Shown here: positions 21,001 through 27,000 of the stretch, piece after piece
Position numbering within the stretch: position 1 is the first letter of the stretch
Layout of the letters: each line of letters begins with the position of its first letter
Assembly (NCBI RefSeq): GCF_056712565.1
Contig: NZ_CM160072.1
Strand: one strand, 5' to 3'
DNA length: 64,000 nt
Position numbers: made by a program

Positions 21001-24000
21001 ACCGTAAGTGAGCAGCACCAAAATAAATCGGTACTTCCAATAACAGATAGTGAAAGCGTAAGGTGAAATATGAACATGAGAATGGAAGCAGATACATGAC
21101 TTCAGGACGACTTTTTCAGAAAACGAGCTAAGGGCGTTGGCTGACGCCCTTACTGTGGCATAAGCTCAGGCTCCGGATGCCGTTTTACAGGCTTCTCCTG
21201 CCATCCAGTAGACGTCCCGGCCCACGACTGCAACCATAATTACGTTGCCCGGAACCGTTATGCAACTTCGTTTCATATTTTACGAGATAACTGGCTCTGT
21301 TCCGGGCTTTCTGCAGCGCTCCCACATCACCACGCTTGATCCAGAGAACAGCGGCTTCACCCGGCTTTTTGTCTGAAGCCTTCCAGGTATCAGAACATCC
21401 ACCCGACAAAGGCGTGTCATCGGAAGAAGGGCGAGCATCAGACGATGCTGGTTTACGGGAAGGCGTCCACCTGGAAAAATGGACCAGGCCATCGCCTTGC
21501 CAGGGCTCAAGATGCAGGGCGCTGCACCATGCCTCCTGGATCATCGTCGCCAGCGAAGACGGTTCGCTGAAATCCCCGATCGAGCACCAGGTATCTTTGT
21601 TGAGCAGTAATATCACGTGATAATGTTTCCTGCCATACATCTTGCCGAACTCCCGGCACCAGAAATAACGCAGGCTGGTTGCATGCACACGCTGATTGGC
21701 ACATCTTTTTTTCCGCTGGTAAGCCTGAATTTTGGCTTTCAGGGATGCAAAAAAACGAGAAATCACCGCTGAATCCGGATCGGGATCCATGATGGTGACA
21801 GGCATATACTCAGGGAAACGTAAATCCACTCGGATTAACGAGACGGCACGGTGCTGCGCCAGGGCACTGTCGAGAAGGATGTCAAAACGGGATAACCAGT
21901 AAGCATTGTGTATTGGTTGATTCATGATGAGAGATCTCCGTTGATTTGGATTGACTTCACATCATTCATCAACGCGGTAAAACTTTACGGCATCCGGCAT
22001 TGAGCAATGCTACAACTCTCTGATTAAGAGTGATTGAAACGGAACAAACCATCCCGGAACGAAAAGATAATCCTGCACACAGCAGCAAAACACGCAACAA
22101 CAGCATGAATGGATTTAAAAACGACATGGACGACGAGAAAAGCCTGAAGGGAAAAGGATCCACAGAACATTCGAACAAAACACCAGAAACGCAACCAGAA
22201 CGCTTCCTGGCAATGCAAATCAACAACAACACCAAAACCTACAGCTTAACCACACAACTCAATCACAGAGCCGAATAGCGCACTTAAAACCTGTTTACAG
22301 ATAACCCTGCCACAAGAACAAAGTTCACCAATATCAGAATCGATTTTCTTATCCTGAAAACGTTACTTTTCAACACACCATAAAAACGATTAACCATCGA
22401 TAACGTAAATCTCATCTGAATCAAAACACCAGAACCAATCATCACGCTTTTTCTGAAAAGAGCCTTATGATAAAGATAATCACCTTGCACTGAGAAAAAA
22501 CACCAGGGCCAGTTAATCATCTCATCAATCTCATCGTCACAAAATCATCCATAGAACCATTTAACAAAATCGTCGCAAGCACACCGTAAATCACACCAGG
22601 TTATCTCAGTCGGATTTGCGTTTTTACGTAAAGACACTTGTCTCAGGTTAACGACTAAAAACACAAAAACTCAGAAAAGGTTAAACGCAACATCAGTAAA
22701 ATCGAATAGCAGATTGATTGCTTAAACAAAAAGGTTTTACAGCAGCTTTAAACTGATTTTAGCTAACGTAAAGATTTACTAAACTGGATGTGTTTCAGAC
22801 AAAGCAATGTGTACAGCAATGCTTAATGAAAACACTTATAGGGCTGTTTATGAAAACACGTGTATGTCTGGTAAAACACTTAGTAGAAAATACGTGTATA
22901 ACACTTACTGAAATGCTTAGTAAAAATACTTAGTAAAATATGTGTATATAGTATCATACCGACATTCTCAATATCTTCAGACTTCCATACATACTAGGTG
23001 TTAATTTTTCACTTTTACAGCCAGCATGGAGTTTTCTGTCCTAAAAACAGAGCAGATTTACTCTGGAATTATTTTTCTGCCCCCGTACTTCAGGCCCCAG
23101 AAAAGACAATCCGAAGCAAACCGTTTGTCAACCTCCATATCATCTTTTACCCCCGGAAAGTGATCGCGTTTTACAACCAGAATGACAGCCATACTGATTA
23201 TGTCGTCTCCCGGCCCCTTCACATATAACATGCATGTCTGTCATTGCTTACTGCTCTACATGACAGGATTTCACATACAGGATGCGCAGTCAGTGTTTTT
23301 ATCGCCACTATAACAGACAGATTACTGTCGCTTTTACTCTTCAGATTGTTAATCTGACCACAAGAACAGTCGAACAGTACAACGACACACCTAAGGAGGA
23401 TATGATCCGTAGTTGATAGCATGTTTTATTTTATTATGAATAGATCAAGAAATAGTTCTTGATATGTCTGGAATAGTTTTGTGAATAGTTCTAGAATATC
23501 CCCATAATCAGCTTTGAAGTGCTTGCAGGGTGATATTTTTATTGATTCCCTTGCATATACAACTGACATGTGATGGTGAAAATCACCAGAAAAGAAAACG
23601 ATTGAGGCGTAATCAGATGAAACAATATAAAGGCGGTTATAACGTGAATAGATATGACTGGAAAAATAAAACAACTGAGCATTTATTGAATGATAATAAT
23701 CTGGCAGATAATCACATACCTGAATGGATCAGAAAAAATGAAATTGCAGCATTCTGGTTCTGGTTAATTATGTCTCATACAGTTCCCGAAAAACTTAAAC
23801 TTAATAATGAATCTGAGTTCAATTCTGCCTTGAAGGGGGTGATCGTTATGAAGGATAACCCCATGACAATTATTCCTTCAAGTCATGAAACACGACTGAA
23901 TGTTATAGGGAAATGGATTAATGCGTTAATCCTTTATGGGGAAGCAGATCGGATTATCTCAATAATGCATCAAAACTGGCTGGGACTCGAAAAGAGAAAC

Positions 24001-27000
24001 GAAGCCAAATGGCTTAAAAAGAATACCGAACAACTGAAATGGGCATGGGAATATATTGATGCACGTATCTCACCCACATATCTTTCCTGGTTTAATCCTG
24101 TAAATGATAACGAAAGATATATTGCCATTGTAGTTTTACTAAAAATGTTATTCCCCACAGACACACCCTGTTTACTGACGCCAAAAGAATTTCACCTAGG
24201 ATTCGCTGCAAAAGAAAGATTTTTCGACAAGATGCACAATGCATTCAGAAAACAGTTTATCGATGGAAAAAAAGATAAACGGGTACAAATCAACGTAAAG
24301 ATATCGCCATCCGCAAAAAGCGCTCTGGACAGACTGACCAGAGAGCGGAAAACAACACAGCAGGCTATTCTGGAACAACTGATTCTGTACGGTAGACTGG
24401 ATTAACTTTCACCACTTTCGCTCCTAGCGATTTTCTTCTTTTTGTAGTGTCTGCTTGCTGCGGGCATCAGGTATTTTTCCGTCATTTTGTTGCAGAACGC
24501 TTCAATGTAGTTAACCATTTTCTGGTGTGCTTTCACCTTTTCCTCCCCAGGGGACATTTTCAGATAAATGTCCTCCTTTTCCACAAGTGCATTTATAAAC
24601 TCCTCTAAACATCCCTGGTTATAAAGCGACGTGAAAAACAACACATTCCCCAGTCTCTCCAGTAATTGCGATTTAACCCTGTATTGTTGTTTTCTGAGAA
24701 TTGATTGTTTTCTAAAGCTCAGTCTTGTTAAAAGTTGTTCAAATCTTGGTTCAAATTTAAAAACAGATTTTAATCTTAGGGATTGATACTCCTGATAAAA
24801 CAGTTCAAACGTCGGGGATGCTGACCGAAGAACAGGTCGGGCCACAGCCCGTGGACTAAATCCCATGACTGAGATTTCCTTTCCCTCCTCCTGCAAGTTC
24901 AGAGGCAGTTCAGCAATCCATGCGTCCAGCTTAGCTGAATCGCTCTCCTTGCTCAAAACCTCATACAAACTGCCCGTGAACGGTTGAGCCGATTTTGGGG
25001 TTGCTTCACCTTTTGACTGTCTGAATCCATCCACTTTTCTCCGGATACTACGCGGAATCAGCATAAAAGGCGGGGCATTAAGAGATAAATGTTTACCAGT
25101 CATACGATGGCATTGTCCCACCTCGATCCAACAGGAAAATTTACTAACCGACCTTATCTTAAGCGCAATTATGTTAAGCAGGTACAGATAACGCACCGTA
25201 TAACGATTAAAATGTTTCTCAGGATCAAACGATTCTGACCGTTCCCCTCTGTACACAAGTCCACTACGCTTCAGTATTCGCTGGGTATCTTTCCAGGCCT
25301 GACTTTTACAAATGCTCATTCGGCGTAGCGTATTAATCGACAGTGATGCCATCACTCCTCCCGAACTTTGTCACTCCAGATTTTTTCACGCCCATATTAC
25401 CTGAATGATAAACCGGATTAGTGTGATCCGGTTCAGTGAAATCAACAGGATACCGGTATGTCATTCAGCCATTCTTCCCTCTCCGCACAAGTGAAATCAT
25501 ATCTGACGTTTCTTCCTGAAGAAATTCGCCAGAAAATCCTTGAACATCTCCACAGTGTTATTCATTACGAGCCCGTGATTGGCATTATGGGTAAATCCGG
25601 CACCGGCAAAAGCAGCCTGTGTAATGCCATTTTTCAGTCCCGTATCTGCGCCACGCATCCCCTGAACGGCTGCACCCGCCAGGCTCATCGTCTTACCCTG
25701 CAACTCGGTGAACGCAGAATGACGCTGGTCGATCTGCCCGGCATTGGTGAAACACCGCAGCATGATCAGGAATACCGGACACTTTATCGTCAGCTGCTAC
25801 CGGAACTGGATCTGATTATCTGGATCCTGCGGGCAGATGAACGCGCGTATGCCGCCGACATTACCATGCATCAGTTTTTACTGAATGAAGGCGCAGATCC
25901 CTCGCGTTTTCTGTTTGTTCTCAGCCATGCCGATCGCGTGTTTCCTGCTGAAGAATGGAATGCCACAGAAAAATGCCCGTCCCGTCAGCAGGCGCTCTCA
26001 CTGGCGACGGTGACAGCCCGGGTGGCAACCCTGTTCCCTTCATCATTTCCAGTACTCTCCGTTGCTGCACCTGTCGGCTGGAACCTTCCGGCGTTTGTGT
26101 CGCTGATGATCCACGCACTGCCACCACAGGCAACCAGCGCGGTGTATTCACATATCCGGGGAGAAAACCGCTCTGAACAGGCCCGGAAACACGCACAACA
26201 GACTTTTGGTGAAACCATCGGGAAAAGTTTTGACGACGCCGTTGCCCGTTTCAGTTTTCCGGCCTGGATGTTACAGCTTCTGCGCAAAACCCGGGACCGC
26301 ATTATCCACCTGCTGATCACACTGTGGGAGCGTCTGTTCTGACACACTCACGCCGACAGGATGTGTCGCTGGATTAACGAGCATTCTTCTTTTTATGAAA
26401 TCATGCTTAAAAATCAGATAATTAAAAGAATATTTTTTCTGCTGCATTTTATTCCTGATTATCCGGATGCGACACATCCTTTCAACATCATGATGCATAA
26501 TAACATCATGAAATAAAAGATGTTTTCTTACGGAGTGCACATCTATGTCTGATAATCGTTCCCGGCATGATCGCCTGGCGGTTCGCTTATCACTCATTAT
26601 CAGCCGACTGATGACCGGAGAATCTCTGTCACTAAAAACACTGTCAGATGAATTTGGCGTTACAGAACGTACTTTACAGCGCGATTTTCATCAGCGTCTG
26701 GTTCACCTGGATTTAGAGTACAGAAATGGCAGGTACAGCCTCAGACGACAGAGCAGCCCGGGTGCGATCCCTGAAATGCTTTCTTTTATACAGAATACCG
26801 GGATCGCACGGATACTTCCGCTCCGGAACGGACGACTGATAACCTGTCTTACCGACAACCAGGAGCCCTCTCCCTGCCTTATCTGGCTACCGGCGCCGGA
26901 TATCACTGCAACGTTCCCCGAGTGTTTCTCGCAACTCATCCTGGCAATAAGACAGTGTATCCACATCTCTCTGATGGCTGAGCGATGGTATCCGTCACTG

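What the first reader, a model, noticed from the sequence alone, without database searches (positions are those of the whole stretch)
23444..25355. Convergent pair of unknown genes with a perfect palindromic operator-like site upstream
Seen in sequence: two substantial ORFs (23617..24405 plus strand, 24402..25355 minus strand) overlap at their 3' ends and have no motif I recognise. About 150 bp upstream of the first lies a perfect palindrome atcaagaa-atag-ttcttgat inside four GAATAG-like half-sites. The pair sits between the YfjJ-like gene and the YeeP-family GTPase, where CP4-type islands usually carry other cargo. Inference: an uncharacterised regulated cargo module.
Basis: inference. Interest (0 to 1): 0.55.

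Follow-up and report, generated by a model that had tools for sequence, protein, structure and literature searches.

The report
Island regulator with phased DNA repeats
The two unknown genes are real and belong to the conserved core of a family of mobile E. coli islands; one likely encodes a DNA-binding switch protein that reads 11-base repeats, not the palindrome, and the other has no known relative.

Summary
The window is an ExPEC pheV-type island, 100% identical to E. coli S88 and ATCC 11775. Both ORFs are real genes under purifying selection, annotated only as hypothetical.

They lie tail to tail, and their stop codons share one TTAA. This arrangement, in the same place (AlpA/YfjJ-like Rep, then the pair, then the YeeP-like GTPase operon), recurs in Escherichia, Citrobacter, Hafnia and Serratia at down to about 25% identity. 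The pair is therefore island backbone, not cargo.

ORF1 has a new Trp-rich N-terminal domain that varies strongly between alleles. Its C-terminal domain is a ribbon-helix-helix (RHH) DNA-binding fold of the CopB/RepA2, CopG and Arc type.

The 8-4-8 inverted repeat exists but is not the conserved element. It occurs only in this allele, a 97.7% sub-allele already breaks it, and such repeats are common in the window. What is conserved is an array of direct repeats spaced about 11 bp apart (core GAATAGTT). Their sequence changes with the DNA-reading strand of ORF1's RHH domain and does not follow the neighbouring Rep protein.

Best reading: ORF1 is an immunity-like island regulator that binds this array. 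ORF2 is a basic, helical protein with no match in Pfam, NCBIfam, PHROGs, PADLOC or PDB, and its function is open.

The parts
23413..23428 (.). Invariant block TTGATAGCATGTTTTA directly upstream of the repeat array. A GCATGT core is also seen next to the arrays of distant loci.
   Evidence: Invariant columns in alignment A4. The GCATGT core is visible in L007, L010, L012, L021, L029 and L030. Its function was not determined.
23438..23499 (+). Array of 5-6 direct repeats spaced 10-12 bp apart. Core GAATAG(T/A)T at 23438, 23450, 23471 and 23483; GAATAT at 23494; GATATG at 23461. Proposed binding array for ORF1.
   Evidence: The same repeats form exact 11-bp tandem arrays of 2-4 copies in seven other E. 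coli alleles. TRF reports period 11, 3.5 copies in L016. The repeat sequence changes with the RHH beta-strand across loci.
23444..23463 (.). 8-4-8 inverted repeat ATCAAGAA-ATAG-TTCTTGAT. It arises where two adjacent repeat units meet and is specific to this allele.
   Evidence: Among the fetched loci it is found only in those identical to the window. A23444G breaks it in the 97.7% sub-allele. Such repeats are not rare.
23479..23508 (+). Promoter-like site TTGTGA-18-CATAAT overlapping repeat units 4-6. It is not conserved in other alleles.
   Evidence: A second, better conserved but weaker candidate is TTGCAT (23551-23556) with TGGTGA (23574-23579), read. The transcription start is not known.
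23451..23969 (+). Hypervariable cassette: most of the repeat array, the promoter region and the first ~118 codons of ORF1. It cannot be aligned between alleles whose flanks are 87-92% identical.
   Evidence: blastn gaps against L002 and L005. In L002 ORF1 is 52% identical to the window's while ORF2 is 96%. In L021 ORF1 is 28%, while YfjJ is 89% and the GTPase 92.5%. Codons 41-80 have dN greater than dS.
23617..24405 (+). ORF1, 262 aa, pI 9.5. A new Trp-rich helical N-terminal domain followed by a C-terminal RHH domain.
24280..24390 (+). RHH domain of ORF1 (residues 222-258). Strand VQINVKIS with Q224, N226 and K228 alternating, then helices 231-242 and 247-257.
   Evidence: Pfam RHH_1 E 0.14 and RepB-RCR_reg E 0.32 for this protein. 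One relative reaches 4.6e-5, and 5 of 11 relatives hit RHH_1 at E<=0.1. NCBIfam NF010256 matches the 62-aa C-terminus alone at E 0.0023 and relatives down to 5.9e-7.
24402..24405 (.). TTAA shared by the two convergent stop codons.
   Evidence: The same 4-nt overlap occurs in L002, L004, L005, L007, L021 and L024. In L030 the called genes overlap by 26 nt. In L010, L012, L014 and L029 they are 13-121 nt apart.
24402..25352 (-). ORF2, 316 aa, pI 9.85, predicted all-helical, no known family. Conserved motifs: AWxNTQxxLKRSG, IVPxxIRRKxDxFxQ, GSLY, LLExLGxxLFF, and a basic C-terminal tail.
   Evidence: It has no match above noise in any library searched. There is nothing in NCBIfam, PADLOC, Pfam or PDB sequences; the window protein's only PHROGs hit has E 0.13, and distant members give only isolated hits at E>=0.01. 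dN/dS is 0.34-0.47. The AF2 model is poor, pLDDT 52.
25386..25433 (+). Conserved control region shared by ORF2 and the GTPase operon: block TCACGCCCATATTACC (25386-25401) and hairpin AACCGGAT-N7-ATCCGGTT (25411-25433).
   Evidence: The block is kept in Citrobacter and Serratia loci. The stem changes on both sides while staying paired in L029 and L030.

Best explanation
ORF1 and ORF2 are a conserved tail-to-tail backbone module of a family of tRNA-integrated, CP4-like mobile islands of Enterobacterales.

ORF1 is a two-domain DNA-binding regulator. Its C-terminal RHH domain (CopB/RepA2, CopG, Arc type) dimerises, and several dimers bind side by side on one face of the DNA to the array of direct repeats spaced about 11 bp apart (core GAATAGTT, 23438-23499) upstream of its own gene. 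This controls its own promoter and possibly the oppositely directed excision/replication genes (alpA, yfjJ-like Rep).

The DNA-reading strand and the repeats change together between island lineages. The N-terminal domain and promoter form a hypervariable cassette between conserved flanks, as in a phage immunity region. The N-terminal domain is proposed to be the signal-sensing or partner-binding part.

The 8-4-8 palindrome is a by-product of two adjacent repeat units in this allele.

ORF2 is a basic helical protein of a family with no known relatives. It is expressed from a strongly conserved two-way control region shared with the GTPase operon. Its biochemical role is unknown; nucleic-acid binding is my guess.

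Shown: the genes are real, the synteny is conserved, the RHH signal is present, the repeat array is conserved and changes with the RHH strand. Inferred: binding itself, repression, and the sensor role.
For: Real genes: full-length homologues down to 23-29% identity and dN/dS of 0.28-0.50.

Backbone: the same order and orientation in 13 distinct contexts across four genera.

RHH domain:
- Pfam PF10723 at 4.6e-5 in a relative, and RHH_1 at E<=0.1 in 5 of 11 relatives.
- NCBIfam NF010256 matches eight family proteins within one region of the profile (26-78 of 85), including the window C-terminus alone at E 0.0023.
- A PHROG 'Arc-like repressor' hit at E 0.018.
- The model shows coil, helix, helix at residues 223-257.
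- Foldseek neighbours are named RepB regulators.

Repeat array:
- It is the densest such cluster in the 64 kb.
- Exact 11-bp tandem arrays occur in seven other E. coli alleles, even where the flanking DNA cannot be aligned.

Repeats follow the RHH strand, not the Rep:
- Strand QINVK or QINIK goes with GAAnTAGTT. This holds even in L007, whose Rep is almost unalignable with the window's.
- Strand QISAL goes with RAATATT in L021, although its Rep is 89% identical to the window's.
- Strand QITVK goes with GAATTTT in L029.
- Strand QISVK goes with GMATGTTTT in L030, where the array abuts a TTGACA -35 hexamer.

Immunity-like mosaic: in L021 ORF1 is 28% and ORF2 57% identical to the window's, between YfjJ at 89% and the GTPase at 92.5%.
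Against: - No binding or expression data exist, and the transcription start is unknown.
- In the window allele the array lies about 50 bp upstream of the better conserved -35 candidate, so repression by simple occlusion is not established.
- The window protein's own RHH hits are below significance (E 0.14-0.32). All NCBIfam hits are far below the curated cut-off of 87 bits.
- The argument that repeats follow the RHH strand rests on about six lineages read by eye.
- Three distant loci (L010, L012, L014) show no clear 11-bp array.
- In E. coli the array is about 1.5 kb from yfjJ, so control of that gene is speculative.
- Nothing here explains ORF2.
Confidence: 0.55

Rival explanations
1. The 11-bp direct repeats are iterons of a rolling-circle origin bound by the neighbouring YfjJ-like HUH Rep, as RepB binds three 11-bp repeats in the pMV158 origin (from memory). 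ORF1 would then be only a CopG-like regulator acting elsewhere.
For: A Gp2/HUH Rep gene lies on the same side. The period is 11 bp. ORF1's domain matches families named for replication control.
Against: The repeat sequence follows ORF1's RHH strand, not the Rep. L021 has a Rep 89% identical to the window's but different repeats. L007 has an almost unalignable Rep but the same repeat core. The array always lies next to ORF1 and 0.3-1.5 kb from the Rep gene.
Confidence: 0.1
2. ORF1 is an RHH accessory protein of a DNA-segregation or DNA-transfer machine, like ParR/omega at a centromere or TraY/TrwA/NikA at an oriT. The repeat array would be the centromere or an oriT-proximal site, and ORF2 a new partner enzyme.
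For: RHH plus repeats spaced one helical turn apart is the ParR/parC and omega design (from memory). There is a weak hit to a BfmA/BtgA mobilisation N-terminal RHH domain at E 0.056. The GTPase-to-DUF4942 operon resembles plasmid leading-region genes. ORF2 has an invariant Tyr131 and an RRK motif.
Against: No ParA or ParM-type NTPase, relaxase HUH motif or Walker motif is present in ORF2. ORF2 is absent from 50,697 phage records and occurs in 2 of 72,556 plasmids. The hypervariable N-terminal domain fits a specificity switch better than structural machinery.
Confidence: 0.1
3. The pair is island cargo: a two-gene toxin-antitoxin or anti-phage defence system, with ORF1 as the DNA-binding antitoxin or sensor and ORF2 as the effector.
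For: In K-12 CP4-57 the same interval holds the defence genes abpAB and rnlAB. ORF1 evolves fast, with dN greater than dS in one stretch. Similar islands carry defence payloads (PMC12458937).
Against: There is no PADLOC hit for either protein or for most distant relatives; one ORF2 relative has a weak, short JetA hit at E 0.011. The genes converge and so are not one operon. ORF1 is large, with its RHH domain at the C-terminus, unlike typical antitoxins. The pair keeps a fixed position across genera and diverges together with the backbone, which is not how swappable cargo behaves.
Confidence: 0.07
4. One reading: the 8-4-8 palindrome is the operator of a symmetric dimeric regulator controlling ORF1.
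For: The arms are perfect and lie in the upstream region.
Against: The palindrome is absent from all other alleles that keep the same RHH domain. It is broken in the 97.7% sub-allele. Inverted repeats of this quality occur 42 times in the window.
Confidence: 0.05

Closest known systems
CopB/RepA2 of IncFII plasmids (NCBIfam NF010256) and Pfam PF10723 RepB-RCR_reg small replication regulators
   Same: The C-terminal ~45 residues of ORF1 and its relatives match these profiles repeatedly over the same region of the profile. They are basic DNA-binding repressor domains.
   Different: Those proteins are about 85 aa, single-domain, and lie in the rep operon of plasmids. ORF1 is 262 aa with a 220-aa unknown N-terminal domain, is chromosomal and island-borne, and scores 15-29 bits against a cut-off of 87. 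It is not a member of that subfamily.
Arc/Mnt (phage P22) and CopG (pMV158) RHH repressors
   Same: The predicted strand-helix-helix layout. Alternating polar strand residues Q-x-N-x-K resemble Arc's Q9-x-N11-x-R13 (Arc residues from memory). Binding of several dimers on one DNA face is expected.
   Different: Those operators are inverted or pseudo-symmetric. Here the conserved sites are direct repeats at 11-bp spacing. In ORF1 the domain is at the C-terminus of a larger protein.
ParR/parC (plasmid R1) and omega protein (pSM19035)
   Same: An RHH protein plus an array of direct repeats spaced about one helical turn apart, close to its own promoter (from memory).
   Different: No partner ParM or ParA is present. 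The element is integrated in the chromosome. The array has 2-6 units rather than 10.
Stl master repressors of SaPIs and lambdoid immunity regions (resemblance in function only)
   Same: The regulator gene points against the genes around it. The DNA-binding part and its sites change together. A highly divergent domain lies between conserved flanks. Related islands have been proposed to be phage satellites (PMC12458937).
   Different: There is no sequence or fold relation: Stl and cI use helix-turn-helix domains. No inducer, excision or helper phage is known for this island.

Membership tests
Ribbon-helix-helix (RHH) DNA-binding superfamily (Pfam PF01402, PF10723) | Significant profile match to an RHH family | tested here: inconclusive
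   The window protein gives RHH_1 E 0.14 and PF10723 E 0.32. One relative gives PF10723 at 4.6e-5, and 5 of 11 relatives give RHH_1 at E<=0.1. NF010256 matches eight family proteins within one region of the profile, at E from 5.9e-7 to 0.015.
Ribbon-helix-helix (RHH) DNA-binding superfamily (Pfam PF01402, PF10723) | Strand-helix-helix layout of about 45 residues | tested here: met
   The AF2 monomer model shows an extended segment at 223-230 and helices at 231-242 and 247-257. Local pLDDT is only 44-61, and the strand is expected to form only in the dimer.
Ribbon-helix-helix (RHH) DNA-binding superfamily (Pfam PF01402, PF10723) | Alternating polar, base-contacting residues in the strand, and an operator made of repeated subsites | tested here: met
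   The strand reads V-Q-I-N-V-K-I-S. Repeat arrays spaced 11 bp apart change in step with the third strand position, N, T or S.
Ribbon-helix-helix (RHH) DNA-binding superfamily (Pfam PF01402, PF10723) | Dimerisation and sequence-specific DNA binding | not testable with these tools
   This needs gel-shift or footprinting experiments, or a multimer-DNA structure prediction.
NCBIfam NF010256 replication regulatory protein RepA (CopB/RepA2 subfamily) | Score above the curated cut-off (87 bits) and a protein of about 85 aa | tested here: not met
   The best score is 29.4 bits, and the proteins are 243-320 aa. They share the domain but are not members of the subfamily.
Type II toxin-antitoxin module | Two co-directional genes in one operon, with a small antitoxin whose DNA-binding domain is N-terminal | tested here: not met
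   The genes converge and their stop codons overlap. ORF1 is 262 aa with a C-terminal RHH domain.
Known anti-phage defence systems (PADLOC-DB v2) | Match to a defence-protein model | tested here: not met
   There are no hits for ORF1 or ORF2. Among nine distant relatives the only hit is one ORF2 relative with a weak, short JetA match at E 0.011.
Variable cargo of CP4-type islands | Presence or absence and position vary among related islands, with no co-divergence with the backbone | tested here: not met
   Position and orientation are fixed in 13 contexts across four genera. Divergence is graded along with the backbone.
ParR/omega-type centromere-binding adaptor | An adjacent ParA or ParM-type NTPase partner | tested here: not met
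   ORF2 has no NTPase motif or family match. The nearby GTPase is of the Era/MMR_HSR1 type.

The most novel reading that the evidence does not exclude
ORF1 is the master repressor of a so far uncharacterised class of chromosomal satellites or mobilisable islands, the tRNA-integrated elements with a P4-type integrase, AlpA, an HUH Rep and a GTPase/ArdB/RadC/CbtA module. Its conserved RHH domain holds the island silent through the repeat array. Its hypervariable N-terminal domain senses a lineage-specific inducer, such as a helper-phage or plasmid protein, as Stl does in SaPIs. ORF2, which has no known relatives, would be a new effector of the switch, for example an antirepressor or a DNA-processing protein.
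Probability: 0.2. Interest if true: 0.75.

Novelty: new variant of a known kind. Interest (0 to 1): 0.5.

Why it matters
CP4-like islands carry virulence, defence and resistance genes in a large share of E. coli and related bacteria. ORF2-like DNA is in at least 742 and ORF1-like DNA in at least 560 of 5,426 complete E. coli genomes. How these elements are kept silent or mobilised is unknown, and a 2025 preprint calls them uncharacterised MGEs that may be satellites (PMC12458937).

This work identifies a conserved, immunity-like regulator together with its probable binding array. That gives a direct experimental handle: deleting or overexpressing ORF1, or mutating the repeats, can be followed by measuring island transcription, excision and transfer. 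It also flags ORF2 as a widespread protein family with no annotation in any library searched.

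Tried and rejected
- Family searches. For the window ORF2, NCBIfam, PADLOC and Pfam were empty and PHROGs gave one hit at E 0.13. For the window ORF1, NCBIfam, PHROGs and PADLOC were empty and Pfam gave only sub-threshold RHH hits. Distant ORF2 relatives gave only isolated weak hits.
- PDB sequence profiles for ORF2, ORF1 and the RHH domain alone gave nothing useful.
- The AF2 model of ORF2 was too poor to use (pLDDT 52). Foldseek on it returned only family fragments.
- Rfam found no RNA family in 20400-26600.
- K-12 YfjH, which occupies the matching position opposite alpA, is unrelated to both proteins.
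- I looked for AlpA or primase remnants in the 1.7-kb gap and found none. The 67-aa ORF there looks non-coding.
- The genome-contig scan returned one locus only, so it did not help with taxonomic range. Organism names came from cluster members instead.
- Intrinsic terminators for each gene inside the other's 3' end have hairpins that are weak or confounded with coding constraint. Whether the two transcripts collide is left open.
- Literature searches found no study of these two genes.

Full report
**What is at the site**

The window is 100% identical to E. coli ExPEC chromosomes such as S88 and ATCC 11775. Gene order there is:
- ireA
- a YfjJ-like 'inovirus Gp2 family' Rep gene (21185-21925, minus strand)
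- a 1.7-kb gene-free stretch
- ORF1 (23617-24405, plus strand)
- ORF2 (24402-25352, minus strand)
- a YeeP-like GTPase gene (25458, plus strand)
- then genes for WYL, DUF905, DUF932, antirestriction, RadC, CbeA/CbtA, DUF5983, DUF957 and DUF4942, then kps.

RefSeq calls both ORFs 'hypothetical protein'. The two stop codons share one TTAA.

**Are the genes real?**

Yes. Both have full-length homologues. ORF1 has a handful of alleles in E. coli at 45-70% identity. ORF2 has 68 word-index hits and 48 profile hits, down to 23% identity.

Pairwise dN/dS between alleles is 0.28-0.50 for ORF1 and 0.34-0.47 for ORF2. The flanking GTPase and YfjJ give 0.13-0.30. Both are soluble, basic proteins with pI 9.5 and 9.85.

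**Backbone, not cargo**

Every ORF2 homologue whose context I could read has a convergent partner of 243-320 aa from the ORF1 family (alignments A6 and A11). It lies in the same place: the AlpA and YfjJ-like genes on one side, and the divergently transcribed GTPase operon on the other. In six further contexts the genes overlap by the same 4 nt.

Cluster members name Citrobacter braakii, C. amalonaticus, Hafnia alvei, a Serratia species and an Acinetobacter MAG. Identity to the window falls in step across the module:

| Gene | Identity in the distant loci |
|---|---|
| GTPase | about 56% |
| YfjJ | about 35% |
| ORF2 | 27-30% |
| ORF1 | about 26% |

ORF2 is absent from 50,697 phage records and present in 2 of 72,556 plasmids. 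By blastn, ORF2-like DNA is in at least 742 and ORF1-like DNA in at least 560 of 5,426 complete E. coli genomes.

K-12 CP4-57 has defence cargo (abpAB, rnlAB) in the matching interval.

**ORF1 has a C-terminal RHH domain**

- The window protein alone gives only sub-threshold Pfam hits at residues 215-257: RHH_1 at E 0.14 and RepB-RCR_reg at E 0.32.
- One relative reaches 4.6e-5 for PF10723, and 5 of 11 relatives hit RHH_1 at E<=0.1.
- NCBIfam NF010256 ('replication regulatory protein RepA') matches within one region of its profile (26-78 of 85) in eight family proteins, at E from 5.9e-7 to 0.015. This includes the window's C-terminal 62 residues alone at E 0.0023. I believe this family is the CopB/RepA2 group, from memory.
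- All these scores are far below the curated cut-off, so this is a shared domain and not subfamily membership.
- The AF2 model (pLDDT 66.6) shows an extended segment at 223-230 followed by two helices.
- Foldseek finds only family members, two of them named RepB regulators.

**The palindrome against the repeats**

The 8-4-8 inverted repeat is real, but several results argue that it is not a functional element:
- The window holds 42 inverted repeats of that quality.
- Among the fetched loci, the pattern occurs only in those identical to the window.
- A 97.7% sub-allele breaks its outer base pair while keeping every GAATAG word.

The GAATAG words behave differently. In seven other E. coli alleles they form exact 11-bp tandem direct repeats of 2-4 copies, for example TGAATAGATCA AGAATAGATCG TGAATAGTTAG AGAATAGTTCT. 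These always follow the invariant block TTGATAGCATGTTTTA. They persist even in alleles whose surrounding DNA can no longer be aligned.

In the window allele there are 5-6 units at spacings of 10-12 bp. This is the densest such cluster in the 64 kb. The palindrome is simply the junction of units 1 and 2.

**The repeats follow the RHH strand**

| Locus | RHH strand | Repeat units |
|---|---|---|
| Window and 7 other E. coli alleles | VQINVKIS | GAATAG(T/A)T |
| L007 (Citrobacter-like) | VQINIKVS | GAAATAGTTTG GAACTAGTTCG |
| L021 (E. coli) | VQISALIS | AAAATATTCATCT AAATATTTTAA GAATATTTTTC |
| L029 (C. amalonaticus) | TQITVKIS | AAGAATTTTAC AGGAATTTTTTC |
| L030 (Hafnia alvei) | VQISVKIS | ACATGTTTTCC GCATGTTTTAA GAATGTTTTCG |

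L007 keeps the same core although its Rep is nearly unalignable with the window's. L021 has a Rep 89% identical to the window's, yet its repeats differ. In L030 the array abuts a TTGACA -35 hexamer.

So the repeats track ORF1's DNA-reading strand and not the neighbouring HUH Rep. This argues against the iteron/origin reading.

The sample is small and was read by eye. Three distant loci (L010, L012, L014) show no clear 11-bp array.

**Immunity-like mosaic**

Between alleles whose flanks are 87-92% identical, the segment 23451-23969 cannot be aligned. It covers most of the array, the promoter region and ORF1's first ~118 codons. In L002, ORF2 is 96% identical to the window's but ORF1 only 52%. 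In L021, ORF1 is 28% and ORF2 57%, between YfjJ at 89% and the GTPase at 92.5%.

ORF1 codons 41-80 show dN greater than dS, at 0.37-0.39 against 0.18-0.24. These are small windows, so this is only suggestive.

ORF1 is also the only gene pointing against the ORF2, (alpA), yfjJ direction. This is how repressor genes of phages and SaPIs are placed.

**Mechanism proposed**

ORF1 dimers bind cooperatively along one face of the DNA at the repeat array and regulate ORF1's own promoter. In islands where alpA lies 0.3-0.7 kb away they may also regulate the excision/replication genes. The variable N-terminal domain would provide lineage-specific sensing.

Binding, the sign of regulation and the sensor role are all inferred. 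Promoter positions are not established. The only tool-called promoter (23479-23508) is specific to this allele, and the better conserved candidate (TTGCAT at 23551) is weak.

**ORF2**

ORF2 has no match above noise in Pfam, NCBIfam, PHROGs, PADLOC or PDB sequences; the only entries are a PHROGs hit at E 0.13 and isolated weak hits in distant members. It has no usable structure model.

Residues invariant across the family are W21, Q25, P101, K107, L130, Y131, E189 and F241, together with an RRK motif and a basic tail. I can only say that it is a basic, helical, cytoplasmic protein that is strictly linked to ORF1 and the GTPase operon.

**Comparison with what is known**

ORF1 works like small RHH repressors (CopB, CopG, Arc) and, in its site architecture, like ParR or omega. 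It is not a member of those subfamilies. The module as a whole resembles a phage or SaPI immunity region in its logic only.

A 2025 preprint describes these tRNA-integrated elements as uncharacterised MGEs that may be satellites. It lists the integrase, excisionase, HUH endonuclease and a RadC/ArdB/CbtA 'moron' module, and the section I read does not mention this pair (PMC12458937).

**Verdict**

This is a new variant of a known kind, with moderate interest (0.5). It offers a concrete way into the regulation of a very common island family, and it includes one protein family with no known relatives.

Noticed in passing
window 25386-25433 (ORF2-GTPase intergenic region): The block TCACGCCCATATTACC is kept in Citrobacter and Serratia loci. 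The hairpin AACCGGAT-N7-ATCCGGTT keeps its pairing through changes on both sides: CCTGGC/GCCAGG in L029 and TCGGA/TCCGA in L030. L007 has G-T wobbles only on the GTPase-sense strand. This suggests a conserved 5'-UTR RNA hairpin of the GTPase operon. Rfam has no match.
   Followed up: partly
window 21926-23616: A gene-free, AT-rich stretch (38% GC against 46% for the window) lies between the YfjJ-like gene and ORF1. In nearly all E. coli alleles examined it is 1.6-1.9 kb and about 87% identical to the window; IS insertions or an extra small gene enlarge it in a few (L005, L016, L025). No AlpA or primase remnants were found. The 67-aa ORF at 23219-23422 (minus strand) is 77.6% identical at protein level, which suggests it is non-coding. 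Its function is unknown.
   Followed up: partly
window 23645-23663 (inside ORF1, codons 10-16): TGAATAGATATGACTGGAA repeats parts of the upstream array: a 9-nt exact copy of 23437-23445 and a 12-of-13 copy of 23461-23473. It could be an extra binding site downstream of the promoter. It is not conserved in the type-B allele.
   Followed up: no
window 24406-24440: The lysine-rich C-terminal tail of ORF2 (KKKK) is encoded opposite a T-run that follows a small hairpin just after the ORF1 stop. The tail codons may therefore double as ORF1's terminator U-tract. The hairpin is weakly conserved.
   Followed up: partly
protein P0009 (Logan contig): A 147-aa protein joins the first ~90 residues of a type-B ORF1 to a DUF4942 (PF13708) sequence. 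It is probably a deletion that fuses ORF1 to the last gene of the GTPase operon and removes everything between them.
   Followed up: no
hits H1-H3 (strains SF-088, CH436, PE144): In some strains an IS3-like ISEc52 element interrupts the 23300-25460 region, so the match comes in two pieces. The exact insertion point was not examined.
   Followed up: no
L014:10098-10181 (Serratia locus): Upstream of the ORF1 homologue there are two 21-bp direct repeats 33 bp apart (three helical turns) instead of an 11-bp array. The RHH strand there is different, AGLNAEIS.
   Followed up: no
window 23530 versus 23617: UniProt B7MN66 models ORF1 as 291 aa, the length given by the GTG at 23530. PGAP and allele conservation support the ATG at 23617, 262 aa.
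   Followed up: yes
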